Source: Podarcis liolepis (lineage: Eukaryota). Taken from it: a stretch of 64,000 bases of DNA. Position 1 is the first letter of the stretch, and each line of letters starts with the position of its first letter. The stretch lies in the NCBI GenBank assembly GCA_965112155.1, contig OZ218110.1; one strand, given 5' to 3'. The position numbers and the translations under genes are program-made. Shown here piece after piece: positions 3,136-59,297 of the stretch. Under the pieces are notes generated by a model, which saw nothing but the letters and a program-made list of their open reading frames with translations, was not told the DNA's origin and did no database searches.

Positions 3136-4128
3136 TTAATCACAGCACTTTATGTGACACCATGAAACCATATTTCTGAATTTTATGACAGATTTAAACA
3201 GAGCTTCCTTCACCTCTCTGTTTCTCAAACTGTATATGAGGGGGTTCAACATGGGAGTCAAAATGGTGTAGAAGAAAGAGAAGATTTTATGAAGTTCCTT
3301 TAAGGTTTCTGTTTCAGGGACTACATAGACTAAGAATAATGAGCTATAGAAAAGTGTCACAACAATCAGATGGGAAGAGCAGGTGGCAAAGGCCTTCTGC
3401 TGAGCAGCTTTGGATTTAATTCGCAAGACGTTGAGAATAATGCGAACATAGGAAGCCAAAGTCAATAGAAAAGGGAAACCTATTGCCATATACCCGAGAA
3501 TAGAAGTTGCAAGTTTTACTAGGTGGGTATTGCTGCATGAGAGGTTTGCTATTGGATATACATCACAAAAGAAATCATCAATTTCATTGGGTCCACAGAA
3601 CGTTAGTTGTACTAAAAAAGAAGTTATGATAGTGTTGGTCACCAGGCCACACATCCAAGAAGTGAATGCTAATTGGAGGCAGAGTTTACCATTCATAATG
3701 GATGTGTAGTGCAGAGGTTTGCATATTGCCAAATACCTATCAAAAGACATCATTGCCAAAAGATAACATTCTGTGGCTAAACAGAAACCAAAGAAATAGA
3801 ATTGTGTGATGCACCCCTTAATGGATATGGACCTATCCCCAGTAATGAAACTAACCAGCATCCTGGGCAGGATGGTTGAAATGTAGCAAGTCTCCAACCC
3901 TGACAAGTTCATGAGGAAGAAGTACATGGGAGTATGAAGATGCTGGTCAACTGCAACCAGTAAAATAATTAGGAGGTTCCCAACAACAGACAAAGCATAG
4001 ATGGCAAAAAACAATACAAAGAGAAGTATTCTCAATCCGAGGAGATTGCCAAATCCCAGAAGGGTGAATGTTGCAGGGCTTGACAGATTTTTCTTCATTT
4101 CTGTTTGGTGGTAAATCTCAGCATCATT
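3136..4128 (-). CDS. Olfactory receptor OR1 (class II, OR11A-like), main coding exon; predicted CDS join(7386..7442,3136..4128), 349 aa
   Basis: OR motifs LHTPMYFFL, MSFDRYLAICKPLHY, KAFATCSSHL, PMLNPLIYSLRN. Acceptor gtatttcAG at 4129-4130. Internal ATG at 4098. Confidence 0.95.
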   Translation of the reverse strand, partial: NDAEIYHQTEMKKNLSSPATFTLLGFGNLLGLRILLFVLFFAIYALSVVGNLLIILLVAVDQHLHTPMYFFLMNLSGLETCYISTILPRMLVSFITGDRSISIKGCITQFYFFGFCLATECYLLAMMSFDRYLAICKPLHYTSIMNGKLCLQLAFTSWMCGLVTNTIITSFLVQLTFCGPNEIDDFFCDVYPIANLSCSNTHLVKLATSILGYMAIGFPFLLTLASYVRIILNVLRIKSKAAQQKAFATCSSHLIVVTLFYSSLFLVYVVPETETLKELHKIFSFFYTILTPMLNPLIYSLRNREVKEALFKSVIKFRNMVSWCHIKCCD

Positions 4129-4274
4129 CTGAAATACAATTTTAAAAACATTACTGAGCTTGGAAATCCATCTCATTATTATTTTTCCTCTGATTGATTT
4201 TGAAAGTCACATGGGACATCCTTCCTGGGCCTCTGCATTCTATACTACTTAATAATTATACATTATTGGGAATA

Positions 4275-7385: not shown

Positions 7386-7442
7386 CTCTAAAATTATAAT
7401 ACTTCCATGTGGAAAATCTGATGTATTCCATTCGGGCTCCAT
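7386..7442 (-). CDS. Upstream coding exon of OR1 (MEPEWNTSDFPHGSIIILE)
   Basis: 19 codons from ATG, then GAG|GTAAAT donor in phase 0. Homologous exons lie upstream of OR2, OR4 and OR5. Confidence 0.8.
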
Positions 7443-10031: not shown

Positions 10032-10988
10032 TCACAAAAAAATTCTGACAAATTTGAACAAAGCTTCCTTGACCTCTCTATTTCTCAAACTGTAAATGAG
10101 AGGATTTAACATGGGAGTAAAGATGGTGTAGAAGAAAGAGAAGATTTTATGTAATTCCTTTAATTTTTCTGTTTCTGGAACCACATAAACTAAGAATAAC
10201 GAAAGGAAGAAAAGTGTCACAACAATCAGATGGGAAGAGCAAGTGGCGAAGGCCTTCTGCTGGGCAGCTCTGGATTTAATTCGCAAGATGGTACAAATAA
10301 TGCAGACATAAGAAGCTAAAGTTAGGAGAAAAGGGGACCCTATTCCCATAAACCCCAAAATAAAAGTTGCAAGTTTTACTAGGCGGGTATTGCTGCATGA
10401 GAGGTTTGCTAATGGATAAACATCACAAAAGAAATCATCAATTTCATTGGGTCCACAGAAAGTTAGTTGACCCAAAAAAGAAGTTATGATAGTGTTGGTC
10501 ACCAGGCCACACATCCAAGAAGTGAATGCTAACTGGAGGCAGAGTCTACCACTCATTATAGTTGGGTAGTGCAGAGGTTTGCATATTGCCAAATACCTAT
10601 CATAAGACATCATTGCCAGAAGGTAACATTCTGTGCATGCCAAGAAACCAAAGAAATAGTATTGTGTGATGCAACCCTTAATAGATATGGACCTATCCCC
10701 AGTAAGGAAACTGACCAGCATCCTGGGCAGGATGGTTGAAATGTAGCAGGTCTCCAAGCCCGACAAGTTCACGAGGAAGAAATACATGGGCTTGTGAAGA
10801 TGCTGGTCAACTGCAACAAGTAAAACAATTAAGAGGTTCCCAACAAGCGATAAAGCATAGATGGCAAGGAACAAGGCAAAGAGGAGGATTCACAGATCAA
10901 AGTCATTGCCAAATCCCAGAAGGATGAATGTTGAAGGGATTGACAGATTTCCTCCCATTGCTTTTTGCTGTTGAATCTCAAATTCATT
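10032..10988 (-). pseudogene. Olfactory receptor OR2 with in-frame nonsense codon (R>stop)
   Basis: From ATG 10958: MGGNLSIPSTFILLGFGNDFDL*ILLFALFL. TGA at 10890-10892 where OR4/OR5 have CGA. The rest of the 7TM frame is intact. Confidence 0.9.
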
Positions 10989-12679: not shown

Positions 12680-12724
12680 CTCTGAAACTGTTATATTCCT
12701 AGGTGCGTTCCATTCAGTTTCCAT
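12680..12724 (-). CDS. Upstream coding exon of OR2 (METEWNAPRNITVSE)
   Basis: ATG...GAG|GTAAAT, 45 bp, a 12-nt in-frame deletion relative to paralogues. Confidence 0.75.
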
Positions 12725-18366: not shown

Positions 18367-19960
18367 TAGTGATGGACAATGCCCCATGACTTGATTTGAA
18401 ATCAGCTCAGTATTTATTAACTTCGTCATAGTACTCTCAAGGCGATGAAAGCTCACCTAGGAATGCTCTGAGACAGTTTGGAATGTCATCACACATGCAC
18501 AGGGTATTATTATTTCCCCAGTTCTGCTCCAACAGTCTACCAATGACATTAGAGCAAGGCTTCCATTTGCTCTGGGAAAAGGTGAATAAACTGAGGCTCA
18601 GCCCAGAGAAGAGACAGATGGTGATTGGGGGGAACTACTCCGCAGGTGTGCCAACTTGAATAAAATATGGGAGCGGGATCCAGGTAAGCCCTGCCCCACA
18701 TGATTGATGACATGATGCAGCACACACACACTATTTGAGTGGCAATACCCATTTATTTGGGTGGCCTGGGCCCCTCAAATATTTTAGGGGAGGTGAAGGG
18801 ACCTCGGCACTTAGGAGCTGGTTCCTGTGCTACTCAGTGTGTACCCTTGATGAGATCACAATTCCTCTTTAAAAGGCAGAGGATTACACAACGATAGCTC
18901 TATCCTGGAGTAACTTTAATCAACGCTACTTCATCTGCTAGCTGTGTATACTGCTGGGGGAAAGGGAACTGATTATGACTACTCATACCCTGACAGCTTC
19001 TATACTACTGTCATTCATTAACTTGGTACCTTCCAGTTTAGATTAATTTAACATGCTTCATTTAGAAATGTCCTTAAAAGTTCACTTAATTCAGAATGCA
19101 GAGAATGCATTAGTCATGATTAGAATAGACCCATTCAGTAATGTTAAGAAATCCAGTCTTTTCTCATGCCTAATGCCTGTTAGAGTTTGCTCTCAATAAA
19201 GAAGTTTGGGCACAATCCTTAGTGTAAAGATTATAAGATCAGTAAATAAGTTCCGTTGATTCCAATGGGACTACTCTAAATATGGCAATGGATCCAGCTC
19301 TCAGGTATGATATCTTTTTCCACAAGGACATCATGATCCAACTTTATTTCTTTTATTTGTTTATTTTTACTCCTACACTTGAAAATTAAAGTCTCGGTGG
19401 GTATTCTTGTTCTTGGCTATTCTTGTTCATCCTGCTGAGACAGTGTGTGTGTGTATGTTAATATCAGTTTGGTGCCATTAATTAAATAGACATGGGTTTG
19501 GAAGAGGGAAGAGAATTCTCCTTGAGATGAGTGAGCATCTAACTTTACCTGTTTGAGAACTCCCCCCCCCCTTTGTCTGCAGTATTGACATCCCATTATG
19601 CGAGATAATAGTTTAACACCTAATGCTAATAGTTTAAGACACTTGGCTTAACTCCCAGAATAACAAATATAGGTAGCCAAACACAGGCAGAAACTGCTTA
19701 GTGATTTCTCCCAGTCACTGCAAACATCTAGTGACAGAAGCACTTGTATTTGATTATTTAACTGTGTCTAAATAAGTGTACCTACTGATATTTTGCTACT
19801 GAATGGAAGCCAGACTTCTTGAACATTTGCACTTTAATAAGTGCACGTTGATATTTTGTTAGTGGATGGGAGCAACATTGGAGCAAGACTCCATAGCATC
19901 TACCTGGAACAAAACTTGGGAGCACCATAAGGAATCAGAAGACAGTCGTGCATCCTAAGA

Positions 19961-20017
19961 ATGGAAACTGAGCTGAACACATCAGAGATTCCATCTAGAA
20001 ACACAATAATTTTGGAG
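19961..20017 (+). CDS. Upstream coding exon of OR4 (METELNTSEIPSRNTIILE)
   Basis: ATG 19961...TTG GAG|GTAAAT, 57 bp, phase 0. Confidence 0.85.
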
Positions 20018-20210
20018 GTAAATATAGTTTCTCATCCCCATGTGCTATCCTTGGAACAGGGTGTTTCTTTTTTATAGGCACCATATTTCTATCAGGTATG
20101 TACAGAAACCATTTCAAACTCATATGGCAACTCTTATCAATTTCATGGTGAACTGTGGAAGGTGGGTTGAGTAAGTCTGATCTGATTTCTGTTTAGATTC
20201 TTCCAAAATA

Positions 20211-20346
20211 GAGTGCTATTTTTTCTAGAAAAATAGGTGCCGGTACTCACCCTGAAATTGTTACTGTAAGTGTCACACTTTTTTATCAACAACAAAAAGA
20301 GGTGCCGGTACAGCATACCCTTGAGTGCCCCCTGAAAAAAGCACTG
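20211..20346. mobile_element. Short MITE
   Basis: Terminal inverted repeats agtgctatttttt/aaaaaagcact and an internal repeat aggtgccggtac. Confidence 0.5.
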
Positions 20347-21235
20347 GTTCAGATCAATTGCATTTACTTAATTTGCCTTCCTCTTTATAGGTCAGTCACA
20401 AGGTTTATTAGGAAAATATGCATACAATGTATGAAAAGCCATCTTTTACTGGACAGATCAATTTTAGACTCTTTAGACAACCGGGGATAGCATGTTGGAT
20501 TTCTCAATCCAATGCTAGGTACTCATAGTTTACATAATATTTCACGACATTTGAATATTTTGAATGTACTTCAGTTCTGGCTCAACTGAGTTTGTAGTTT
20601 TGACAGTTACGTTCTTCATCTTCATTTGGAATCTCTCAATCAATGAAGTTTCCAAGCTGCTGATTTTTACCCAGAATTCTGTTCACTTAATATAGGTAAT
20701 AAGGATCTGGAGTTACCTTGTTTGATTCAGTGAGACTGTTCTGGAAGAAAAATCAAAATCTATATGTAGTTTACTTCGGGATTGGAGAATGTTTCCTAAG
20801 CTAGTGTAATAAAAATATTGATAATTTGTACAACAATCAAGGTATTTGGTTCAGCTACTTTTCTCCTCCACCTAAAAATAGGGCTGATAAGAATTGAAGC
20901 CCCAAACCTCTGGTGGACATCACATTGTCTACGCCAGATTTTTGCTATGATGTCCTTTGGAACAGCCTCCCTTTACATGTGATCAGGTTCTTGGAGTGTT
21001 TAACCTATACCAGTGCCCTGGACTAGGGCTACAATTGTATGTCCTCTAACCCATATAGTTCCATTTTAGACTGCAGCTGTAGAAATCATATTAGGAGGAA
21101 TCACATTGAACACCAATAATAGAATCAGCACAGCACAAAAAGGGCATGTATGGAAATAGAGATGGGTGTCTTCAAACATCTGAATGGTTATATCACAGAA
21201 GTTAGTCCAGTATTCTGTACTGTTAGGGGTGTGGA

Positions 21236-21981
21236 ATTATATTATTATTATTATTATTAGACAACGTAATAATCATAAATGAATAAGAATAAAAATGTGC
21301 ACCCCACCACCAAGTCCATTCCATTGTAACTATCCAACCTCCCAAAAATTCAACACCTCTTGCAATGGCTTGACCCCTTTCCATTTTAACAGTACAAATT
21401 ATACAAACACCCTCCATATCTCCTTAAAATAATTTCTCCTGCATATTCCCCGTCTTACCTTAATGGCACATTCATCATTAATAGCTATACAGTGGTACCT
21501 CTGGTTACGTACTTAATTCATTCAGGAGGTCCATTCTTAACCTGAAATTGTTCTTAACCTGAAGCACTACTTTAGCTAATGGGTCCTCCTGCTGCAGCTG
21601 CGCCACCACCATGCGATTTCTGTTCTCATCCTGAAGCAAAGTTCTTAACCTGAAGCACTATTTCTAGGTTAGCGGAGTCTGTAACCTGAAGCGTATGTAA
21701 CCTGAAGTGTATGTAACCTGAGATACCACTGTATCCCACACCTCTTTATACCATTCTTCCATTTTATATTCAGTTTGCTCCTTCCTCTTTCTGGCTATAA
21801 TAATTCATGCAGCTGTCAATAAATATTTGAGCAAGTCCTTCATAGCCTGTGAACCTTACGCCCCATCGTAAATTGATAATAATGCTACCTCTGGACTTTT
21901 GGTCAGCTTTAACACAGTGATTTCTGTTATCTCCTTAAACACCCTTTGCAAAATAATAAATAAATCCATTATTCCATACTA
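21236..21981 (-). mobile_element. L1-like 3' fragment with (ATT)n tail, inserted in a CR1 remnant
   Basis: 14-bp TSD gttaggggtgtgga at 21222-21235 and 21982-21995; tail at the left end. Confidence 0.7.
21490..21731. mobile_element. Tc1/mariner (Tigger-like) MITE
   Basis: TIRs cagtggtacctc/gagataccactg flanked by TA. Same family as 57238-57479, in opposite orientation. Confidence 0.85.
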
Positions 21982-22384
21982 GTTAGGGGTGTGGACTTTA
22001 AGGTAACTCCCAACTCTACAGTTCTGAGATTCTCTGTTGTGTTATATTTCTTTATTGGGGAACATACAAAGCAATATCCCATTCATATAATATGTATGGA
22101 ATTCCCCAATCTTATTCTCAGGATTCCATTCCTGTCACTATTGGGAAGAGAAATGGCATGGGTTTCAAATACAAGATGCTGCAATCATGATTGGATTGGG
22201 GGAGGAAACATGAGAAAGGAGCAGGTAGGAAAACGTCCAGCAACCTTCTTTCCAGCTGCTTCTCTACCACAAATCTTCCCTTCCCAAAGCCATTGTGGAG
22301 GAGCAGATATCTCTTAAAATACAAATACAAATGTGACAACATTAGTTTGCTAATGTTTTTTTTTAAAAAAAAAATGTGTTTTAG

Positions 22385-23356
22385 AATGATGCTGACAGTC
22401 ATCACCAACAAACAGCAGTGGGAGGAAATCAATCAAGTCCTTCAGCATTCATCCTTCTGGGATTTGGCAACCTACTTGAACTGCGAATTCTCCTGTTCAT
22501 ATTGTTGCTTGCAATCTATGTTTTATCTCTAGTCATGAACTTCCTTGTTGTTTTTCTGGTTGTGGTTGACCAGCATCTTCAAACCCCCATGTATTTCTTC
22601 ATCATGAACCTGTCCTTCTTGGAGACTTGCTACATTTCCACCATCCTCCCCAGGATGCTGGTCAGTTTCCTTACTGGGGATAGGTCCATATCCATTACAG
22701 GATGTATCACACAATACTATCTCTTTGGTTTCTTGGCAGCCACAGAATGCTACCTTCTGGCCATGATGTCCTATGACCGGTATTTGTCAATATGCAAACC
22801 TCTGTGCTACATATCCATTATGAATGGTAGACTCTGCATCCGACTGGTGATCACTTCCTGGATGTGTGACCTGTTGACCAACACTATCATCACTTTGCTT
22901 ATGCTAAAGCTCACATTCTGTGGGCCCAATGAAATTGATCATTTCTTTTGTGATGTATATCCAGTGGCAAACCTCTCCTGTAACAATACTCAGCTCGTAA
23001 AACTTGCAACGTTTATTTTAGGAGTGATAGGAACAGGTCCCCCTTTCCTACTAACTTTGGCATCTTATGCCTTTATTATTTTCACTGTCTTACAAATTAA
23101 GTGTAAAGCTGCCCAGTGGAAGACCTTCACCACTTGCTCTTCTCATCTAATTGTGGTGACACTTTTCTATGGATCATTATTCCTTGTCTATATAATCCCT
23201 GAAACAGAAACACTGAAAAGACTACGCAAAACCCTTTCTCTGTTCTATACCATCCTGACTCCCTTGCTCAACCCCCTCATATACGGTTTGAGAAACAGAG
23301 AGATGAAAGAAGCTCTGCTTAAATCTGTCAGAAAATTCAGCAATAGAGTTTCATAG
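22385..23356 (+). CDS. Olfactory receptor OR4, main coding exon; predicted CDS join(19961..20017,22385..23356), 342 aa
   Basis: 7TM OR motifs. Codon 22418 is GTG, not ATG. Acceptor tgtgttttAG at 22383-22384. Confidence 0.9.
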   Translation, partial: NDADSHHQQTAVGGNQSSPSAFILLGFGNLLELRILLFILLLAIYVLSLVMNFLVVFLVVVDQHLQTPMYFFIMNLSFLETCYISTILPRMLVSFLTGDRSISITGCITQYYLFGFLAATECYLLAMMSYDRYLSICKPLCYISIMNGRLCIRLVITSWMCDLLTNTIITLLMLKLTFCGPNEIDHFFCDVYPVANLSCNNTQLVKLATFILGVIGTGPPFLLTLASYAFIIFTVLQIKCKAAQWKTFTTCSSHLIVVTLFYGSLFLVYIIPETETLKRLRKTLSLFYTILTPLLNPLIYGLRNREMKEALLKSVRKFSNRVS

Positions 23357-23749
23357 CTCCAAAATGACTTGATAGAGAAATTGAAGGATACAGAAACGTG
23401 GGGGAAGTCCTGAGATAGAATTGACCTTATCAAGGATGTTTGATGATGTCTGAGGAAACTATATATGCCAAAGTAATCATTAAGATTTACTGATCCAAAA
23501 CTTTCAGTTCTAATATGTCAATTGCAGTTTAGCTGTTTACCAGTTTTTCCACTTCTTCAGTTGTTGTGGCATTATTCTGAGTAGATGGATCTGATGGATG
23601 TCTTCATGGATCTGGTGAAGCATACAGAAAGATTTTGTAATTGTGAAACACATGTAGCTTCTTGTGAGATGGACCCATAATTTTTACAAATTTAAACTCT
23701 GTATTGCACCATGATTGCTTTCGACAACAAATGACGGGGCAAAGCAATG

Positions 23750-23844
23750 GGAGTTAACCCATTGCATGGATTCGAAATGCCGAGCTTATGGTTGGCAAGC
23801 CCAAGAGGCTCAGTAGTTTAGACCACAGCGCCACCTGTGTCCCT
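23750..23844 (-). mobile_element. Sauria SINE 5' fragment, degraded
   Basis: accacagcgccacctgtgtccc is the reverse complement of the SINE head. Confidence 0.7.
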
Positions 23845-24664
23845 GGGGAGAGGATGCAAGTGGACAGCAGAAGTAGATTCTGGAAACTCTTATGCTGGAT
23901 CAGAGACGTATATTTCAAGGTTGGAAGGACAAACATCCACCATCTACTACACAGTGGTCTGAAGACCTCAGTGTCCCTCTTATGATTAAGCACAAAGCTC
24001 CTAATTGTCAGTCTTGTTTAGATACCTTTCTGGATACATGGGCTGTGTATGTTAATCTATATATATATTAGAATTGGTGTAATATGCTTATTGTCAATGT
24101 CAGGTGCTGCTATCTTTATATTTTCCTTCTAGTCATATTGTTATATTTGCAAATATATATATTTTTAAAGAAAACAAATCTGTTTTGTTATATCAAGACC
24201 AGGCTTTGGGAGAGTAACATGTAATCAGTAAAATTAATTTCCCCTGACATGACTGAACTTGTAACTTTCTGCATCTGAGAACATTTTTCCAGTTCATTTG
24301 GCTGGAGTATCGTTGATATCCTATAATGTGAGCCTTACCATGCTAATAGTTTAAGATGTTTGGCATAACTCCCAGAATTACTGATACATAGAGCCAAGCA
24401 TGGGGGGGGGGAATTGATCAGTGCCATCCCCCCAGTAACTGCAAGTATCCATCTACAGAAACATTTGTGCTTGATCATTTAAGCATATTTGAATAAGTAC
24501 ATCTGCTGATACTTTCCTAATAAATAGAAGCAAGACAAATGAGGAGCTTTTAGAAGAGCACACTGGGATTCTGCTATTCTAAGGAAGCATGACTCCACAA
24601 TATCCACCTGAAGCAAAGATTGTTAGGATAGAGAAGCAGCAAAACAGAGACTTGTCTTCTAGTG

Positions 24665-24721
24665 ATGGAACCTGAATCTAACACATCAGAAATTCCACCT
24701 AGAAATACAATCATTTTCGAG
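24665..24721 (+). CDS. Upstream coding exon of OR5 (MEPESNTSEIPPRNTIIFE)
   Basis: ATG 24665...TTC GAG|GTAAAT, 57 bp, phase 0. Confidence 0.85.
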
Positions 24722-24797
24722 GTAAATATTTATGCATTAGCTTTTCATCTCTATGTGTTGTATTTGGAACTGTGGGATTACTTAATGTGCCTTCCCC

Positions 24798-24802
24798 TTT
24801 CT

Positions 24803-24854
<52 letters not shown>

Positions 24855-24855
24855 T
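24798..24855. repeat. (TTTC)n microsatellite
   Basis: Read directly from sequence. Confidence 0.95.
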
Positions 24856-25843
24856 TTTCTCGCTTTATTATTGTACAAAATAATAGTGTTGCTCAGTCCT
24901 CAAGTTTATTAAGTTTATTAAGAAAGTCATAGAGTTGACAAGCATACGAAATGAGATATTTTACTGAAGCAATTAATTTTAAACTCTTTGGAACATTGGA
25001 GGCAACACTTTGAATTTCACAGAAAACAACTCCAGGACTAGGAGCTCAGAGTTAAAATAATGAAAATAATGTAAATGTTAATACAATAGCGATTGTATTA
25101 ATAGAGTTTCTTCTCCTTCCCCCATAGCTACATCACACCAGGCACATTTTCTTTCATTCTCCAATTCCAGCCAAAAAAGAAAAGGTTGGCTATTGCCTGG
25201 CTACAGTATGTTCAGCACTCACTCCAAGTGATTGACTAGAAGTCCTGTGGTACACATGTGGTTGAATGCTGCCTGTAAAAAAAAGCAGGGAAGATGTGAT
25301 AGCTCTCTTCAAATGTTTAAAGGTATAACACAGAGACGAGGGAGCAGACTTGCTCTGCGTTGTTCCAAAATGTAGGACCAGAAGAAATTACAGGGGAAAA
25401 GATTTCAGCTAAACATGAAAAGAAACTGTGAAATAAGAGCTATTCCATAGCGGTACATATGTACCAACTTGAACATTTAGCATTGTGCAATGTGCACTGT
25501 TGATGGTGCTAAAGAACATGTGTTCCACATTTGTAAGAAATCAATAGTGTAAGAAATCTAGAGCAGCGGCTATACTTTGGAATGCCCAACCTACTGATAT
25601 CTGACAGGTATCTGTGCTATACTCTTTTCAATGCCTGCCTAAAATTTCTTTGTTTAGCCAAGCCTCCTCAGATATGTAGCAAAAACAAATGTGTCTTCTT
25701 TTTTAGCTATTGATGATTTCAGTCATCTTTTCACTGTTTTTAAATACCTGCTTTGAGCTGTTTTACAGATAATCGTAATGTTTTATTTCATGCTTTTGTA
25801 AACTGCTGAGGTTTTCTTACAATCAAGCAGTATGCAAAGCCAT

Positions 25844-25874
<31 letters not shown>

Positions 25875-26479
25875 CAATTTTTTTAAAAAAAACAGACTGC
25901 CATGGGAAATCCTGGTCTATCCTCTATTATTTACGCACAGACCAGGCACACATCTTTCGTCGGTGCTGTGCTTGCATCCTGTGTAACAGTGTGTCTCCTA
26001 ATACTGTGAATATCATCACCCAGCACACTGTGTCACCAGCAAAGTTTGATTACAACATCCTGTAGGAAAGTATGGTGTTCCACACAGAAAACATTCCCTT
26101 ACTCTAAGGTAAACTTTTGATTCAGGAAACAAGAGAGTCATTTCTCACTAGGGTCATGTCCTTTCAACTACCAACTGGGCAGGGTAAACTAATGAAACTG
26201 TCCCTTTCATTTCATGCAATAAACCAACCTTTCTTCCTTCCTCTGGTGCATGAACATCTTGGGGCATACAATTAAGGGTAGAAACACATATTCACAGCAA
26301 AAGCACATTTTAACTTCAACAGAAGATCCTAAACCTGTTTGGAGTGTATGTTGGAAAACATATGAGTGCTGGACACACACATGAGTTCAGACACACACTT
26401 CGTAACATCTGCATTGCAGATCTTTTCCTGATTGAAGGGGAGGTGGTGGACTAGGTGATCCGCAAAGCAATCTTTACAA

Positions 26480-26615
26480 CAGGCATGGCCAAATGTGGCC
26501 CTCCAGATGTTTTGGGACTATAATTCCCATCGTCCCTGACCACTGGTCCTGCTAGCTAGGGATGATGGGAGTTGTAGTCCCAAAACATCTGAAGGGCCAA
26601 GTTTGGCCATGCCTG
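26480..26615. mobile_element. Palindromic hAT-type MITE
   Basis: caggcatggccaaa...tttggccatgcctg forms a near-perfect hairpin; 8-bp TSD ctttacaa/ctttacag. Confidence 0.85.
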
Positions 26616-27166
26616 CTTTACAGTCTGGTGATTTTCCATTGTGTAGGTTTACTTCCAGGGAAAATATTTTGTATTACCTGGAAGCACCCAAAACAGTATC
26701 CCCCTTCCTCATACTTTTGAAGGAGATACAGTCCCGTCTCAGGATTGTACAGTCTTACTTTCTCATTACATCACTATCCCTAGTGGGAAGGGCAGCAACA
26801 TAGTACTGGAATCCCAGCTTTGGGAATATTGCCTAGTTTCAGGGAGGAAACGGGAAAGCCACAGGTAGGAAATGGTTAAGCACTATCCTTTTCTCCAAAT
26901 GCCTCACCTCTGCAAATCAGCCCTTCTCACTGGCCCTAACTCTAACCCTTTCTGTGCAAGAAGTGCTTCAAAGTAAAAGAAGTAGGTTAATGGCAGAGCT
27001 TTTAAAACACATGATACTCCATGACCATTATTTTGAAAATAATACAGCATGTGAAAACCATACTGGATACCTGGATCCTGCCAACTTTAAATTCGAACAT
27101 CAGTGGATGGTGAAACAGGAGGAGATGGTGTCTAAGCTCACTATAACTTGTCAAATTGTATTTCAG

Positions 27167-28135
27167 GATGATGTTGAGATTCATCATCAAACAGAAATAA
27201 AGAAAAATATGTCAAGCCCTACAACATTCATCCTTCTGGGATTTGGTAATCTCCTTGACCTGCGAATCTTCCTCTTTGTATTGTTTTTTGCCATCTATGC
27301 TTTGTCGCTTGTTGCAAACCTCCTAATTGTTTTTCTGGTTGTGGTTGACCAGCATCTTCAAACCCCCATGTACTTCTTCATCATGAACCTGTCCTTCTTG
27401 GAGACTTGCTACATTTCCACCATCCTCCCCAGGATGCTGGTCAGTTTCCTTACTGGGGATAGGTCCATATCCATTATGGGATGCATCACACAATATTATT
27501 TCTTTGGTTTCTTGGCAGCTACGGAATGTTATCTTCTGGCCATGATGTCCTATGACCGGTATTTGGCAATATGCAAACCTCTGCACTACTCAACCATTAT
27601 GAATGGTAGACTCTGCTTCCAGTTAGCATTCACTTCTTGGATGAGTGGTCTGTTAACCAACACTATCATAACATCTCTCATGGTAGAGCTCACATTCTGT
27701 GGGCCCAATGAAATCGATGATTTCTTTTGTGATGTATATCCTGTGGCAAACCTTTCTTGTAGCAATACTCACATAGTAAGAACTGCAGTTTTTATACTAG
27801 GGCTGATGGTGACATTACCCCCCTTTCTACTAACTTTGGCCTCCTATAGCTGCATTATTTCCACTGTCTTGCAAATTAAATCCAAGGTAGCGCAGCAAAA
27901 GGCCTTCTCCACCTGCTCTTCTCATCTGATTGTTGTGTCACTTTTCTATGGGTCAATATTCCTTGTCTATATAGTCCCTGAAACAGAAACACTGAAGAGA
28001 CTACACAAAATGTTTTCTCTGTTCTACACCATCCTGACTCCCATGCTGAACCCCCTCATATACAGCTTGAGAAATAGGGAGGTGAAGGAAGCGCTGTGCA
28101 GATCTGTCAGAAAATTCAGCAGCAGAGTTTTGTAG
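27167..28135 (+). CDS. Olfactory receptor OR5, main coding exon; predicted CDS join(24665..24721,27167..28135), 341 aa
   Basis: All OR motifs present. Acceptor ttgtatttcAG at 27165-27166. The paralogous start position is ATA. Confidence 0.95.
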   Translation, partial: DDVEIHHQTEIKKNMSSPTTFILLGFGNLLDLRIFLFVLFFAIYALSLVANLLIVFLVVVDQHLQTPMYFFIMNLSFLETCYISTILPRMLVSFLTGDRSISIMGCITQYYFFGFLAATECYLLAMMSYDRYLAICKPLHYSTIMNGRLCFQLAFTSWMSGLLTNTIITSLMVELTFCGPNEIDDFFCDVYPVANLSCSNTHIVRTAVFILGLMVTLPPFLLTLASYSCIISTVLQIKSKVAQQKAFSTCSSHLIVVSLFYGSIFLVYIVPETETLKRLHKMFSLFYTILTPMLNPLIYSLRNREVKEALCRSVRKFSSRVL

Positions 28136-31100
28136 CTTCGCAATGTTGTGCTGGATCTGGTGAAGTATGCAGAAATGCACATAGATGAAGGGTTGAGAAA
28201 GGATTTGCCATTAATGGGATGTGAGGATCTCACATTTGCAAATACCTCAGTAAAGCAGTCTGAGCCAAATGTGCATATTGCAATTCAGTTCTCCAGCATA
28301 TTTTTTGACTTCTGAAGTTGTTGTGGCACACTTTTCAGCAGGTGGATCTGATCGGTATTTTCATGGATCTGTTAATCCATATTCACAATTATTATGGATA
28401 ATTGTAGTTGGTGAAGATATCAAATAAAGCATGATTTTTTAAATTGTAAAATGTGTATTTTCCATGGCTATTGAAAGAACAACAACAATTACTTGCATTT
28501 ACCTCCTGAATTGGCCTCCATTTCTATAATGCTAAAGGACAGAGGGTCTCTAGCTATTGTTGGCCAAAATGGTCTCAGATGGTAAGGGTTTTAGCCCAAC
28601 AATATCTAATGGGCCATTCATTCCCTACCACTGAACTAAACCAATATGAAAAATTTTAATGGAATTTCAAATGGCCATATTGCTGTGCCATTTCAATCTC
28701 TCGTTCAACTCTTATTCATCACCACTATGTGCTTATGTTCTGTGTCATCAAGATTTCAATCTTATGCCAATTTACTTCAGAATAATCTCCACTGAATTCA
28801 ATAGAAATTCCTTTTCTATACACATGCATAGGATTGTTCTGGAAGGATCCAATCCTGTGCACACTTCTCTGGAAGTAAGTCCTGTTAAAGTCATTGGGGA
28901 TTTTGATTATACATGTACAGGATTGCATGTTAGTTACATCAATATATTAATAATATTTTTAGTATATATATATTTTAAATTTATATCCTGCCTTTCCCCT
29001 GACAAAGACTCAAGGTGTCTTACAGATAAAATAATAACAGCTAAAAACATAGGGGAGGGAAAACAATATTTAAATAAAATAAAGTAATAAAATTAAAATT
29101 GTATCTGGCATGTCTGTGCTCATGTCTGTTCATGTGTGTGTATTTTAATCGACACATATTGGGACATTTCTATGGAAAGCCAGAGTAATGTTTGCTTTTT
29201 ACAAGAAGACAGAGAGATTTGACATGCCGAGTTTGATTTTGCAGGATGTCCTCCAACATTTCCTGAGTATTCTCAGGTAGAAGCAAGAAATTTCACATGG
29301 TTCAAGGACATCCACTATACAGTCTATACTGAACAGATGGGATTTAATCTGAAAGGGAGGATGAAAGCTGAATTGAAATTGGTGCTAGCCAAGTTACTTG
29401 ATTGTGTAGGTCTAGGTGGTCCTCCATCTGCACTTCACACCTTTCTCTGAAACTTGTCTCTTTGAAATATGTTGCCGTGTATTGAATGCTGCAACGGACA
29501 TAGTGATCTAATCCTTCTCACTTCTATTTAAGGCTGTTGCTTGTCCCAATTTATAGTCATCAGCACAGGAAATATTGCTGGGCTCCAGCTCACCTACAGA
29601 AAATTAACAGGTTTCCCAATTAATTAATTAATTAATTAAATTTGTATACCGCCCTATACCCATAGATCTCAGGACAGTTCACAATTTAACATTTCAACAA
29701 AAGTATGACTCTGAAAGGCAAAGATGGAATGTCTAATGAGTGCAAGCTTGTTTGTCCTCTAATTGCAGGCAACATGTGCTGCAGTTCTGGGGCAGTCTAC
29801 CCCCACACACCTCTGCTTCTTTTAGAACAATGTCAGGTTCCTGTCTTACCTAAACTATAAAGGGACCTCTTTGGAAGAAGGGGCTTGGGCCCCATGGAGA
29901 CCCTTGTTCCAGCTGAAGATCTAAAGGTGACCTGAAATACCCTTTCTAGGGCTCCCGCCAATAACTCCTCCTACCCTATACTGCTTTGATCTCCAGTTCT
30001 CTTTGTCAATTGGCCTCAGGAGCAAAGGGAGCAGCAGACCACATGGGAAGCCAAGTGTTTCAATAGAAGCCTCCATTTGCCTACCAAATGCTTCTATTGC
30101 TCATGATCTACTGGGGTGGGAGGGTCTATTCAGTGGCAGGAGGGAAATCGAGCTGCAAGCAATGACTCGGCTTCAAGAAATGAGAAAATAAAGGAGGAGC
30201 TGTCAGTGACTATACAACTCTCTCCATATCCTCTGGACCATTGTTAATGCCCACATTTCCATCTCTGCTCTGGAACTCACTGCCTTAGCTCCTGCCTCCA
30301 CACCTAGAGCTTGACACAGGAACTCAACTTTAAAATACTTGGAAGTGGGCTATGAAACTTCAAGAACCTCCAAGTCTTAGCTGAAATGGCACGAGCCTAG
30401 GATACCTCCTCTCATACCAACTTGTTCACTCCCTGGGTTCTTCTGGGTATCCACTTGTGCCACAAGGGTGGCTGAGGAATGGCTGGTTGAGATGTGAGAG
30501 AGGCCTTTCTCCATGATCATGCCAATCTCTACTTCAGGATGTTCAGTGCCTTCTACCCTCCATTCTTTTCCATGCCTAAGACTTTTATTACTGTTCCAGT
30601 TGGCATCTGCCATTTGACATTCCAAGTTGAGGATTTTTCTGTGGGCTGGATTTTGAAACTGGTTGGACACAGTGCTGTCTTTCTAGAAAAAGAGGTCCTG
30701 GCACTCACCATGGATACCTCCCTTGTTCTCTTACAGTGGCAATGGTGCCCACCTGAGAGGTGCCAAAAAGATTCCAGCTGAAAAAAGCTCTGTACCTGTT
30801 ACACCCGTCTCTGTTTTTCCAAATGTTTGCTTTTACAGTTGATTATTTAATTTTTGTTAGGTTTTTTTTCCTTCCTTAATGGAAGCTGGCTGCGCACGAT
30901 AAAGGCAGTGGTACGGAGGAATATTTTTTTAAATAAATAATACATCAATGACAATCCATCATTCTTTATTATGATGATCATAGTTCAGCCACTAAGTTAC
31001 AGTCAAACAAATACAGTTTGCAATTTGCAGTTAACAAGACAGTAGCAGTCTATTAGGAATTAATAGACAGAAGTTAGACTACATCCCACTTTTATTAACC

Positions 31101-36208: not shown

Positions 36209-36820
36209 TCAGCCTGGATCTATCACATCCGAGGCCTTTAAGTCTCTTAAGTCTCTTTCAGTCCCTTTCAGCCGGTTTTGTTGACTGTCCTTTATGTTGA
36301 ACATCCGATCTCGGAGCATCTTTGACCCAGTAGGGTCTGTATTTTTTCCAACCAGTCCTCCATATTCAAAGGAAGAGTCCAGATCCTGCTTCTTATTCTT
36401 TCCAAGTCCAAATATCCCAAATGTCCCAAACATTCCAATTTTCACCTTGGTCAAAATTGTAATCCATAGGTCTTCCGGACTCCCCATAGGGAAGAATCCC
36501 CAATCTTCATTCTTGATTTCAAACCAAATTTTCGACATCCGAACTTTACCTTCCTTGTATTCTGACCTTAGAGGCCTCTGGTTGTCCTTTTTCACTTGCA
36601 TCATTTCTGCTCCTCCTTCACATTCCTCCAAAACGGCACATATATCTTGCTTCCCAGCTGTAGATTCTTCTTGAGTCAAGTCCACCACTTCAGCAGAGTT
36701 GTTTATTTTAAAATTCAAAGTTGTCAGATTCGTAGCCATAACATGACTCTGCTCTTGCAGCATTCCCAGGAGTTCAAAGACCCTATCCAGCTCTGCTTGT
36801 AATTTTCCATCTGCAGCCAT
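36209..36820 (-). CDS. Retroelement-encoded uncharacterised protein (203 aa)
   Basis: ATG 36820 MAADGKLQAELDRVFELL...RLKGTERDLRDLKASDVIDPG; homologous to 32424-32951. Confidence 0.55.
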   Translation of the reverse strand: MAADGKLQAELDRVFELLGMLQEQSHVMATNLTTLNFKINNSAEVVDLTQEESTAGKQDICAVLEECEGGAEMMQVKKDNQRPLRSEYKEGKVRMSKIWFEIKNEDWGFFPMGSPEDLWITILTKVKIGMFGTFGIFGLGKNKKQDLDSSFEYGGLVGKNTDPTGSKMLRDRMFNIKDSQQNRLKGTERDLRDLKASDVIDPG

Positions 36821-36950
36821 TGTAATGTCCCAAATCCCCTCTAGAGGGATTTTGGTTACTAAGTGTTCTTTTTCCAACAATCAGGTTATTTTGTTAAAAT
36901 AAAAAAATTCCTTCCAGTAGCACCTTAAAGACCAGCTAAGTTAGTTATTG

Positions 36951-43253: not shown

Positions 43254-43650
43254 CCTATGGTCTGCTTATGGGTGTCTAGTAACTTGTAACACTCCCACTA
43301 ATCATTTATTGTACGTTAAAAAGGCAAACAAGAAGGGCGGGTGAAAAAGGACTTTTGCCTTCCAATAGTCAATGAAATCTTTATTCTGTTAACAATAGTA
43401 CAAGGATAAAACGTGATTGTCAGAAGAAAGGGATGGCTGTGACTTTAAATGCATTTATATGCACACTTCGACACTTGGCACTCGCACGGGCATTTTTGTA
43501 CACATTACTTTAAGAACTGCATTACAGAATCTAGAGATGTATGGATTTTGAAACATGGCTGCATTTCAGTTTGCATCTTGTTTCAGAATGTGGAAATTGG
43601 GTAAGTTTGCCTTGGAATGCAAGTTGAAATGAATTTCTCTCTACCTTTTT

Positions 43651-43887
43651 TGTTGTTGTTTAGTCATTTAGTCATGTCCAACTCTTCATGACCCCATGGA
43701 CCTGAGCACGCCAGGCACTCCTGTCTTCCACTGTCTCCCGCAGTTTGGTCAAACTCATGTTAGTAGCTTCGAGAACACTGTCCAACCATCTTGTCCTCTG
43801 TCATCCCCTTCTCCTTGTGCCCTCAATCTTTCCCAACATCAGGGTCTTTTCCAGGGAGTCTTATCTTCTCATGAGGTGGGCAAAGTA
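43651..43887 (-). mobile_element. RTE-BovB LINE 3' fragment
   Basis: Reverse complement of the 58595-58964 copy, with (CAA)n tail. Confidence 0.9.
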
Positions 43888-56107: not shown

Positions 56108-57237
56108 AATAGGGGCACATATCATCCAGCACCACAGGATTACTCAAGACTTTGAGATTGTATTGCAGGGCAGATCTCAGTGGTTTTATTAAATTCTGAA
56201 GCTGAATTGATTTTGCACAGCAATATCAAAATATCAAAAAGCAACATCAATAAGCAATATCAGAAATATCCAGTGGTGATAAAATGTGGACCTTGTCTTT
56301 TCCCATTCTGTAAATATGTGAGAAAGGTTGCCTTACCTTTAAACGTGTCTACTGTAGAATGAGCAGTGTTGTGAATTCTCTCAGCAGCAATATCAGCGCC
56401 TGAAGGTTCAAAACATCCTTTGACATCTTTAACTCCAGTACATGTCTTCAGGCTGATACTAACAAGAATGCAGGGAATCAATCTGAACACTTCTAGATCA
56501 TGATGTCCCAAAGGCATCGCTCTTATTTGCCATTGATCCTAAAGGGGTGCTTAGCACTCCTCTTTGGGTTATTTACTCCTTTTATCCTGGAGGAATGTGT
56601 AATCTCCCTTGACATTTGTTCACATCAAGAATGTCACCTACTTTAAACTGCCAGAAAATTAATTCTACTTTGAGCATGCAGTAAAATTTAAGGTCAGGCA
56701 GAGCCATCAAAATAATATTGTTTTCCTTTTGTTTTGCTACTGTGATTAACTGTACAGAAAGAAACTCGTTGAAGTTCATGGGGCATGAACTAGTCAAGCC
56801 AAAACACTTTCAACTTCCATTTGCTTCCAGAGGGAAAGCTAGGCACTTGCTAGCATTGCTCCCATTGAAAAAGAAAGAGGCTGGGAACTATTTAACTTGG
56901 ACTACTTTGTCTATATATTAGTAATAGGCAGTCCTGGACTACACACACTGAGGGAATGATTCAGTCCCACAGAAGCACTGTTACAAGGTATGCATCTGAA
57001 CCCATATGTGTGTCCACCACTTACATGTGTTCTATGCATATTCCTGAGAGGATTCAAAACTTTTCCCATAGTCAATATGTGCATGTGTTATGAATGTATC
57101 TCTACTGTTAACCCATATACCTAATAAAAATGTTCACAAACAAGAGCATTAAAGAAGAATCGGTTTATGACATGAAAGACAGAGTATACAGATGCTCTTT
57201 CGGACAGCAAGGTTACAGGTGGACAGCGGTATATATA

Positions 57238-57479
57238 CAGTGGTACCTCGGGTTACAGACACTTCAGGTTACAGACGCTTCAGGTTACAGACTCCACTAA
57301 CCCAGAAATAGTACCTTGAATTAAAAACTTTGCTTCAGGATGAGAACACAAATCGCACGGTGGCAGCGTAGAGGCAGCGGGAGGCCCCATTAGCTAAAGT
57401 GGTACCTCGGGTTAAGAACGGTTTCATGTTGAGAACAGACCTCCAGAAAGAATTAAGTCCTTAACCCGAGGTACCACTG
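57238..57479. mobile_element. Tc1/mariner (Tigger-like) MITE
   Basis: TIR cagtggtacctcgggtta/taacccgaggtaccactg with TA flanks. Confidence 0.88.
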
Positions 57480-58594
57480 TACCTTAGATTTGAAGGGCAA
57501 AAGAGATTCTCTAATTACCCAAGCTTGAGCTGTGAACACAACCATTTGCCATAGTCACATACTAATCAGAAAGAGAAAAGGAATTAATATACCTGATCTA
57601 GCTGTAAGTAGATCATTGAGTCAGGGATAGAAGATGTGTGCCTTTTGTTTGAAAATTAAGATTTGCCCTTAAAATCTTATATCACCATGACTACAGTGTG
57701 TGTCACTCATTCCTTGGTCCATATTCTACCAAAGCTAAAAAGTTCAACCTTGAGATCAGAGAGTGAAAAGGGAGTTCTAGTGGAGCTCTGAGCTTCCCAA
57801 CGATTGAAAATCTGGGGCATGAACACTATTTTGAACCCGTGTAAATCTCAGAAAAGGAGGTGGAGCTTCCTGGTTGAGTTAATATTGTAGTATCGTCATT
57901 CCTTGGAATCATTGCTTCTTTCTTGCAAGTTCCTGTCTGTTTACCACTTTGTTTACTCTGGTTGAAGTTGAAGGGACATGGTCCTAGTTAGAAATGACTA
58001 ATTGGTTATCTGTGTTTTTCTTGAATAATGAATTTATTAATATAAGACAATTTCATCATCTAGGCAGAATTCTATTCCTTTTTACATGAAGTGATGATTA
58101 AACTTGGTTGGAAAGTAACACAGGATCAGGGTGCTGACCTTTAATTTAATATTAAGAGTTCCAGATATTTGCTTGTACTTTCCGGGATATGTATAAAGCA
58201 AGGTCTGTTACCAGGGTCAAAGACAGCCCATTAAAGGGCATATTTCATATTCAGGTAATGCCAACTGCACTGATGCCCTGCTCCTCAGTTATAATCCAGA
58301 TTCACCCAGCATTACAGCACTATTAAGGATCATGACACAGGACAGGTGCAATCCTGCTTCTACCTCTTCCCCATCCCCGCTTCTGTGCCTAACAGTAAGT
58401 TGGGAGAGGGGAATTTAAAGAGGTTTTCAGATAATGTTTTTGGCATGCGGCCAAAGTGCGAAGAGAAAGTGGACACGCCCCCCCCCCGAGCTGAAAGACC
58501 CACCCTAACATCTGCTCCAAAAACAGGTTCCTAGAGCTCAGTAGGCATAAGCTCACCACCCTGCTTCGATTAGTGGTATTAGTACTACTACACC

Positions 58595-58964
58595 TGCTTT
58601 TGAATTCTGGTGCTGGAGGAGACTCTTGAGAGTCCCATGGACTGCAAGAAGATCAAACCTATCCATTCTGAAAGAAATCAGCCCTGAGTGCTCACTGGAA
58701 GGACAGATCCTGAAACTGAGGCTCCAATACTTTGCCCACCTCATGAGAAGGGAAGACTCCCTGGGAAAGACCCTGGTGTTGGGAAAGATGGAGGGCACAA
58801 GGAGAAGGGGACGACAGAGGACGAGATGGTTGGACAGTGTTCTCGAAGCTACGAACATGAGTTTGACCAAACTGCGGGAGGCAGTGGAAGGCAGGAGTGC
58901 CTGGCGTGCTCTGGTCCAGGGGGTCACGAAAAGTAGGACACTACTAAATGACTAAACAACAAGA
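58595..58964 (+). mobile_element. RTE-BovB LINE 3' fragment
   Basis: RVPWTARRSNLSILKEISPECSLEGQILKLRLQYFAHLMRR; (CAA) tail; 11-bp TSD actactacacc. Confidence 0.95.
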
Positions 58965-59297
58965 ACTACTACACCACATCATACTCATTTCTGATTTGCA
59001 TGAACTCATTTGTTTATTGTGGCAGCCCCTGCACTTTAGAACTCCCTGTCTGTTGAGATCAAGCAGGTGCTTTCTGTGTACTCCTTTCAGTACCTGTTAA
59101 AAACATTCTTATTTAGACAAGCCTACCCAGATGCTTAGAAAATTGAGGTCATTTGAATCTGTTTTAGTATTTTTATTTTTGTGTGTTTAAGGTTGCAAAT
59201 TTTTCTCAAGTTTATTGTTTGATTATTTTTGGAATCTGCTTTGAAGTTTTTAATAATCAAGTGGCATATACATTTTATGAAATAAAAAAATTAAAAG

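What the first reader, a model, noticed from the sequence alone, without database searches (positions are those of the whole stretch)
22385..22420. Main-exon start codons have decayed in OR4 (GTG) and OR5 (ATA)
Seen: OR2 has gca ATG gga gga aat where OR4 has gca GTG gga gga aat. OR1 has gaa ATG aag aaa aat where OR5 has gaa ATA aag aaa aat. Without the upstream exon, OR4's first in-frame Met is inside TM1, and OR5 would start at the M of its N-M-S sequon and lose it. Inference: two independent losses of the conventional start suggest initiation really occurs in the upstream exon. OR4 would otherwise be mis-called a pseudogene.
Basis: partly seen in the sequence, partly recalled or inferred. 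Interest (0 to 1): 0.7.

Follow-up and report, generated by a model that had tools for sequence, protein, structure and literature searches.

The report
Ancient split smell-receptor genes in lizards
Two lizard smell-receptor genes lack the usual start codon in their main exon and likely begin in a small conserved exon about 2.4 kb upstream, a layout already known from mouse and human receptors, which here appears to be shared by a whole receptor family from geckos to snakes.

Summary
In detail: GTG at 22418-22420 (OR4) and ATA at 27197-27199 (OR5) sit in the column where OR1 and OR2 have ATG. A third copy just outside the window has TTG. All five paralogues, and a sister gene, carry a 15-19-codon upstream exon (ATG...GAG|GT, phase 0) that joins in frame. 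It shows dN/dS 0.36, only in-frame indels, and a second N-glycosylation sequon. Orthologues in three lacertid genera have the same Val and Ile, so assembly error is unlikely. Public models for Podarcis muralis and Lacerta agilis already use the two-exon OR4. This is a split olfactory receptor of the kind Barnes et al. 2020 described, and this scan noted that kind before in three other genomes. Corrections: the main-exon Met may not be the ancestral start (1 of 19 gecko proteins have it). OR5 has other in-frame ATGs. OR4 gets truncated rather than called a pseudogene in at least one database. No transcript across the junction was shown. One possibly-RNA contig breaks exactly at the acceptor, but its other end did not lie on exon 1. 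Verdict: a new, old, squamate-wide member of a known kind; interest 0.3.

The parts
19961..20017 (+). OR4 upstream coding exon, 19 codons, ATG to GAG, followed by GT donor; carries an N-T-S sequon at residue 6
   Evidence: peptide identical to the N-terminus of P. muralis XP_028558736.1
20018..22384 (+). OR4 predicted phase-0 GT-AG intron, 2367 bp; the acceptor TAG is itself an in-frame stop that closes the unspliced frame
22385..23356 (+). OR4 main exon, 323 codons plus stop, intact 7tm_4 receptor
22386..22388 (+). out-of-frame ATG at the second base of the main exon, present in all five clade genes
22418..22420 (+). GTG (Val) in the column where OR1 and OR2 have ATG
   Evidence: Val in orthologues of three genera
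22535..22537 (+). first in-frame ATG of the OR4 main exon, inside TM1; gives 273 aa
   Evidence: used by Zootoca model XP_060138183.1
24665..24721 (+). OR5 upstream coding exon, 19 codons, with N-T-S sequon and GT donor
27167..28135 (+). OR5 main exon, after a predicted 2445-bp intron
27197..27199 (+). ATA (Ile) in the same column
   Evidence: Ile in orthologues of three genera
7386..7442 (-). OR1 upstream coding exon, 19 codons
3136..4128 (-). OR1 main exon; keeps ATG in the column
12680..12724 (-). OR2 upstream coding exon, 15 codons (12-nt in-frame deletion)
10032..10988 (-). OR2 main exon; keeps ATG in the column but has an in-frame TGA at 10892-10890 in this assembly

Best explanation
OR4 and OR5 are intact olfactory-receptor genes whose translation likely starts at an ATG in a 19-codon upstream exon that is predicted to splice in frame onto the main exon, which would leave the main-exon codon free to drift between Met, Val, Ile, Leu and Thr. 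Shown: the exon, its ATG, the GT donor, the AG acceptor and phase 0 in six neighbouring genes; open joined frames of 336-349 aa (OR2 has a separate stop); purifying selection and in-frame indels in the exon; the same peptide in predicted proteins from geckos to snakes. Inferred: splicing at this junction, initiation at this ATG, and a second N-glycan as the thing selection keeps. In the spliced message a scanning ribosome would meet the exon-1 ATG first and then an out-of-frame ATG right after the junction, so the main-exon ATG of OR1 and OR2 is probably little used as well.
For: Exon with ATG, GAG|GTAAA donor and phase 0 in 5 of 5 clade genes plus the sister. Pooled dN/dS 0.36 in exon 1 and 0.20 in the 7TM core; all 4 internal gaps in pairwise exon alignments are one 12-nt deletion, against 11 of 69 and 16 of 66 gaps of 3n length in the 150-nt flanks. 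Neutral simulation: all five keep ATG and stay stop-free in 0.1-1.8% of runs. Met missing in 3 of 5 clade genes against 3 of 90 controls. The neighbouring OR3/6/7/8/9 group has upstream exons with in-frame stops and no in-frame ATG, and keeps the main-exon ATG in 5 of 5. A profile from the five local exon peptides hits 16 of 140 proteins and 0 of 2800 shuffles; 20 of 158 after more were fetched, from gecko, skink, amphisbaenian, lacertids and snakes. Two or more N-terminal sequons in 27 of 29 hand-picked exon-bearing sequences against 2 of 87 controls. Val, Ile and Leu are shared by orthologues in three genera with intact frames. One possibly-RNA contig stops matching exactly at the acceptor AG, 22383.
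Against: No joint 20017 to 22385 was listed (18 joints were hidden). The 60 further letters of that contig did not lie on exon 1 (depth 0 in bin 19891-20181), so it may splice to another exon, or not be RNA. Public two-exon models are predictions whose RNA support I could not see, and predictors reach for the upstream exon mainly where the main-exon Met is missing (15 of 16 hits). The 11 codons between the acceptor and the column show dN/dS 1.09, and the next 12 codons 1.15. Exon-1 ATG context is mixed: purine at -3 in OR4 and OR5, pyrimidine in OR0, OR1 and OR2. The estimates rest on 18 codons and non-independent pairs, with signs of gene conversion. The longer N-terminus alone raises the chance of a second sequon.
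Confidence: 0.85

Rival explanations
1. Near-cognate initiation: GUG (OR4), UUG (OR0) and AUA (OR5) still serve as starts, and the upstream exon is untranslated.
For: GTG and TTG sit in strong context (purine at -3, G at +4). All three codons are one base from ATG. GUG starts in vertebrates are known (recalled).
Against: It does not explain an ATG-led, in-frame, selected upstream exon. An out-of-frame ATG precedes the codon in all five genes. Relatives have Gln, Glu, Lys, Ala, Ser, Asn or Pro in the column (ungapped anchoring).
Confidence: 0.04
2. OR4 and OR5 are decaying pseudogenes, and the lost ATG is the first lesion.
For: OR4 departs from consensus motifs (MN for GN in TM1, YLSIC, KTFT, YGLRN) and has private changes G181D and H160C. 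Neighbour OR2 does carry a stop.
Against: Frames are intact here and in orthologues of three genera that share the same Val or Ile. Core dN/dS is 0.20-0.25 for all OR4 pairs and 0.16-0.25 for OR5 pairs. The odd motifs are shared by the orthologues.
Confidence: 0.03
3. Transcripts are mixed: a different or non-coding upstream exon, or no splicing, is used in part, so OR1, OR2 and OR5 start at main-exon or intronic ATGs and exon 1 gives only one isoform.
For: The X18 contig's 60-letter end did not lie on exon 1. OR1, OR2 and OR5 have in-frame ATGs just upstream of the acceptor. OR5's N-M-S Met is conserved and gives 308 aa. Barnes 2020 describes two-isoform split ORs.
Against: OR4 and OR0 have no such ATG, because a stop closes the frame at or near the acceptor. 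A non-coding exon would expose the out-of-frame ATG first. This rival is compatible with the best explanation as a minor isoform.
Confidence: 0.08

Closest known systems
Split olfactory receptor genes of mouse and human, class 1 (Barnes et al. 2020, PMC7055050; e.g. Olfr1174-ps, Olfr1175-ps, Olfr1177-ps / OR5D3P)
   Same: No initiation Met in the main exon; ATG in an upstream exon; intron in the extracellular N-terminus; intron size 1.7-3.7 kb here, within the reported 550-22628 bp; small paralogue clusters.
   Different: The upstream exon codes 19 residues (most listed mammalian N-terminal introns lie at residues 1-13, a few at 16-35) and carries its own sequon. The clade is larger and spans squamates. 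Orthology to any mammalian split OR was not tested. The mammalian cases rest on RNA junction reads; this one does not.
Public gene models of the same genes: P. muralis XP_028558736.1 / A0A670JIE3, L. agilis XP_033024649.1, Zootoca XP_034991441.1
   Same: 342-aa two-exon OR4; exon-1 peptide identical in P. muralis; 98.5% identical overall.
   Different: Annotation is inconsistent: orthologues of OR0 and OR5 often carry unrelated predicted N-termini, and other models are cut to 273 or 255 aa. No record seen describes the clade as split.
[quoted passage not shown] 2014, PMC4122780)
   Same: OR coding sequence not confined to one exon (search listing only).
   Different: Teleost genes; I did not read the paper, so intron position and family were not compared.

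Membership tests
Olfactory receptor (Pfam 7tm_4, PF13853) | 7tm_4 score above the curated cut-off over the whole domain | tested here: met
   OR4 135.8 bits, OR5 150.8 bits, cut-off 27; profile positions 3-276 and 1-276 of 280
Split OR (Barnes 2020) | Intact frame of 300-350 aa across two exons | tested here: met
   OR4 342, OR5 341, OR0 341, OR1 349, sister 336 aa without internal stop; OR2 fails through a separate TGA
Split OR (Barnes 2020) | Initiation Met and splice junction conserved in orthologues or closest paralogues | tested here: met
   DNA level in 6 of 6 paralogues; in other species through predicted proteins only
Split OR (Barnes 2020) | No conserved in-frame ATG after the junction that still gives more than 300 aa (OR4, OR0) | tested here: met
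   OR4's next Met gives 273 aa; OR0 has no in-frame ATG in the first 200 nt of its main exon
Split OR (Barnes 2020) | Same criterion for OR5, OR1 and OR2 | tested here: not met
   OR5's N-M-S Met gives 308 aa and is shared by orthologues; OR1 and OR2 keep the Met. They have the split layout but would fail that paper's strict filter.
Split OR (Barnes 2020) | Junction supported by RNA reads | tested here: inconclusive
   a contig ends at the acceptor but is not joined to exon 1; no joint listed
Split OR (Barnes 2020) | Expression in olfactory neurons at protein-coding level | not testable with these tools
   No run identifiable as olfactory tissue was available

The most novel reading that the evidence does not exclude
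A squamate-specific OR lineage moved its start into an upstream exon before geckos split from other squamates and gained a second N-glycan. The main-exon ATG arose later by drift (Thr to Met) and now works as a start-codon relay: lost again in some copies, perhaps letting others return to single-exon coding. One exon 1 may also splice to either of two neighbouring receptors, as the Zootoca X1/X2 models sharing one first exon suggest.
Probability: 0.25. Interest if true: 0.5.

Novelty: new member of a known kind. Interest (0 to 1): 0.3.

Why it matters
It extends split ORs to a large and old reptile clade and shows how single-exon annotation garbles such genes (invented N-termini, truncation at TM1), which affects repertoire counts and any cloning for function. 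The conserved extra sequon gives a testable reason for keeping the exon. It does not overturn a principle: split ORs and loss of the main-exon Met were described in 2020, and OR4 is already modelled this way in public records.

Tried and rejected
Run search on the OR4 main exon: no RNA holder listed. Two raw RNA runs of unknown tissue, 12% and 6% read, gave no depth on the OR4 coding exons, which is uninformative. Contigs of X17 cover 22763-23739 at about 94% identity but are not shown to be RNA. Protein searches with the first 45 residues found only P0001 itself and no shorter protein, so no transcript-derived protein was found. Cluster look-ups showed no sequencing-run member in the exon-bearing clusters asked about. 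The rattlesnake models come from AUGUSTUS trained on earlier annotations, so they do not prove the junction. A DNA search of the own genome with OR4 exon 1 found only OR4 and OR0 and missed known paralogues, so it is too insensitive to count copies. The short-peptide tblastn was mostly noise apart from the clade exons and the sister lead. A simple scan for a phase-0 coding exon upstream of the three other Met-less ORs gave one unconvincing candidate. The ancestral residue of the column was not reconstructed; two-state parsimony is nearly tied (9 changes with a non-Met root, 10 with a Met root). Searches used the wrong strand for OR10 and OR11, and those rows were ignored. and the profile part of 37 failed on script errors and were rerun. 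Literature searches for a squamate split OR found nothing relevant; subscription papers and Hogan 2021/2024 were not searched or read.

Full report
Setting. The window is a tandem cluster of olfactory-receptor (OR) genes at G000:C14:27528001-27592000. OR1, OR2, OR4 and OR5 form a clade with a fifth gene, OR0, 5 kb outside the window. OR4 and OR5 main exons score far above the Pfam 7tm_4 cut-off.

Observation. They occupy one column, 12 codons before LLGF: ATG in OR1 and OR2, GTG in OR4 (22418-22420), ATA in OR5 (27197-27199), TTG in OR0. OR4's next Met is residue 51 of the main exon, in TM1, leaving 273 aa; OR5's is the M of N-M-S, leaving 308 aa. In unspliced DNA OR5, OR1 and OR2 also have in-frame ATGs shortly before the acceptor; OR4 and OR0 do not. 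For background I fetched 700 kb of the same chromosome around search hits and found 99 OR frames: 6 clade or sister, 90 full-length controls, 3 short ones left out. Three of 90 controls lack a Met 10-24 residues before LLGF, one of them broken by a stop, against 3 of 5 clade genes (p 0.0014) or 4 of 6 with the sister (p 0.00015). Paralogues are not independent and the sample is not the whole genome.

The upstream exon. Alignment of upstream regions shows a block running from ATG to GAG|GTAAA in all five genes, 1.7-3.7 kb from a conserved AG acceptor, in phase 0. It codes 19 residues (15 in OR2, by a 12-nt deletion). Joined frames are 341-349 aa and open, except for OR2's separate TGA. A divergent sister gene has a homologous 18-codon exon and no Met before TM1. 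Pooled over ten pairs, dN/dS is 0.36 in exon 1 and 0.20 in the 7TM core, but 1.09 and 1.15 in the two short main-exon N-terminal segments. Pairwise alignments show only the 12-nt gap in the exon, while 11 of 69 and 16 of 66 gaps in the flanks are multiples of three. Under neutral substitution five copies keep ATG and stay stop-free in 0.1-1.8% of simulations (star tree, no indels, conversion ignored). As a control, OR3/6/7/8/9 have predicted upstream exons with in-frame stops and no in-frame ATG, and 5 of 5 keep their main-exon ATG.

Other species. The best homologue, P. muralis XP_028558736.1, is 342 aa, with the same exon-1 peptide and Val in the column. L. agilis and Zootoca orthologues also have Val; OR5 orthologues have Ile and OR0 orthologues Leu in all three genera; the L. 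agilis OR2 orthologue has Val (one P. muralis UniProt model of OR0 carries an OR1-type Met start). This argues against assembly error, which was not tested on reads. A profile built only from the five local exon peptides hits 16 of 140 fetched proteins and 0 of 2800 shuffles, and 20 of 158 later, from a gecko, a skink, an amphisbaenian, lacertids and snakes; the next six scores are all recognisable copies. These are predicted proteins, and 15 of the 16 lack the main-exon Met, as expected if predictors look upstream only then. Many other models of the clade have unrelated N-termini or are truncated. Of 29 exon-bearing sequences picked by hand, 27 have two or more N-terminal sequons, against 2 of 87 control ORs (one of the 27 counts a sequon upstream of the exon, and length contributes).

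History of the column. In a FastTree tree of 108 of 111 sequences (3 lacked my anchor motif), clade plus sister has support 1.00 and only squamate or unnamed members. The Met 16 residues before LLGF, seen in most outgroups, occurs in 1 of 93 tips. The Met at -12 occurs in 1 of 19 gecko, 0 of 5 skink or cordylid and 33 of 59 other squamate proteins; two-state parsimony gives 9 changes with a non-Met root and 10 with a Met root. So the column is a freely changing site, and Met may be a later gain; the direction at the root is open. Within lacertids and Rhineura, Met surrounds the Val, Ile and Leu tips, so recent losses remain the simplest reading (inference). OR4 and OR5 are sisters by core but not by N-terminus. 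A gecko-to-snake spread implies an age near 200 million years (recalled, not from a call).

Transcript evidence. Four runs were laid on 19600-28300. One 222-letter contig from run X18 (another species; RNA by guess only) matches 22383-22544 with 2 differences and has 60 more letters that do not follow the intron. A break at 22383 is what splicing to an exon ending in GAG would give. The letters were not shown, so this supports use of the acceptor weakly and leaves the donor open, or counts against it.

Mechanism. Likely: splice, initiate at the exon-1 ATG (G at +4 in all six), translate a longer N-terminus with two sequons. An out-of-frame ATG at the second base of the main exon in all five clade genes would further shield the -12 codon, so it drifts. 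Rivals (near-cognate start, pseudogene, mixed isoforms) are weighed in their sections; core dN/dS of 0.16-0.25 for all pairs and shared unusual motifs in OR4 orthologues speak against decay.

Comparison with the literature. Barnes et al. 2020 (PMC7055050; passages, section 7 and supplementary file 4 read) report 13 human and 41 mouse split ORs, including genes once called pseudogenes for lack of the initiation Met. OR4 and OR0 meet their sequence criteria; OR5, OR1 and OR2 would fail the filter against a downstream Met giving over 300 aa. The vertebrate chemoreceptor survey PMC10869828 (passages and section 17) takes frames of 750 bp or more and looks for extra exons only where none is found; OR4's main exon passes that length. 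The rattlesnake paper PMC12400810 (passages and part 1 of 7 of its supplement) treats ORs as typically single-exon. PMC4122780 was seen as a listing only. Five searches for a squamate split OR found nothing relevant; closed-access papers and unread supplements may hold it. Three earlier scan notes describe the same kind in other genomes, at least two of them cats; none overlaps this locus, and they are not evidence.

Verdict. Observation confirmed; interpretation largely right but unproven at RNA level and too simple about which start is conventional. New member of a known kind, partly in public annotation already. Interest 0.3.

Noticed in passing
window 10892-10890 (-): OR2 has an in-frame TGA where orthologues of P. 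muralis, P. raffonei and L. agilis have Arg: a recent or polymorphic pseudogene, or an assembly error.
   Followed up: partly
L032; G000:C14:27515489-27515542 (+) and main exon from 27517839: A divergent sister OR has a homologous 18-codon upstream exon and no Met before TM1; both its sequons lie in the main exon.
   Followed up: yes
L031; G000:C14:27526663-27526719 (-): Fifth clade gene OR0 has TTG in the column, a third Met-less copy; an acceptor-like sequence directly precedes its exon-1 ATG.
   Followed up: partly
G000:C14 near 26567699 (+) and 26718614 (-): Two further intact OR frames lack a Met before the sequon and begin after acceptor-like sequence; possible unrelated split ORs, donor exon not found.
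   Followed up: partly
P0123 and P0010 (Zootoca XP_034991441.1 isoform X1, XP_034991442.1 isoform X2): OR4-like and OR5-like main exons are modelled with the same first exon, which has a 4-residue deletion; it suggests one exon splicing to two receptors, or a merged model.
   Followed up: no
window 4000-4130, 22385-22460, 27167-27240: N-terminal segments and 7TM cores group differently (OR1-OR5 0.91 over 45 nt against 0.84 in the core; OR4-OR5 0.69 against 0.85), which suggests gene conversion between inverted neighbours.
   Followed up: partly
window 17346 (-) and 47185 (-): Predicted non-coding upstream exons of OR3 and OR8 end in a GC donor where OR6, OR7 and OR9 have GT.
   Followed up: no
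window 19961, 24665, 7442, 12724: The exon-1 ATG has a purine at -3 in OR4 and OR5, which lack the main-exon Met, and a pyrimidine in OR1 and OR2, which keep it; OR0 breaks the pattern; numbers are too small.
   Followed up: no
window about 22805-22870: This OR4 allele has private H160C and G181D (342-aa numbering) against its orthologues and paralogues.
   Followed up: no
window 36209-36880 (-): A 223-codon open frame that is not an OR; it looks like a retroelement ORF1 remnant (label recalled, not tested).
   Followed up: no
window 21486-21734, 57235-57481; 43650-43887, 58728-58965: Dispersed repeats of about 240 bp; the 21486-21734 copy in the OR4 intron has very high depth in all four runs laid.
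   Followed up: no
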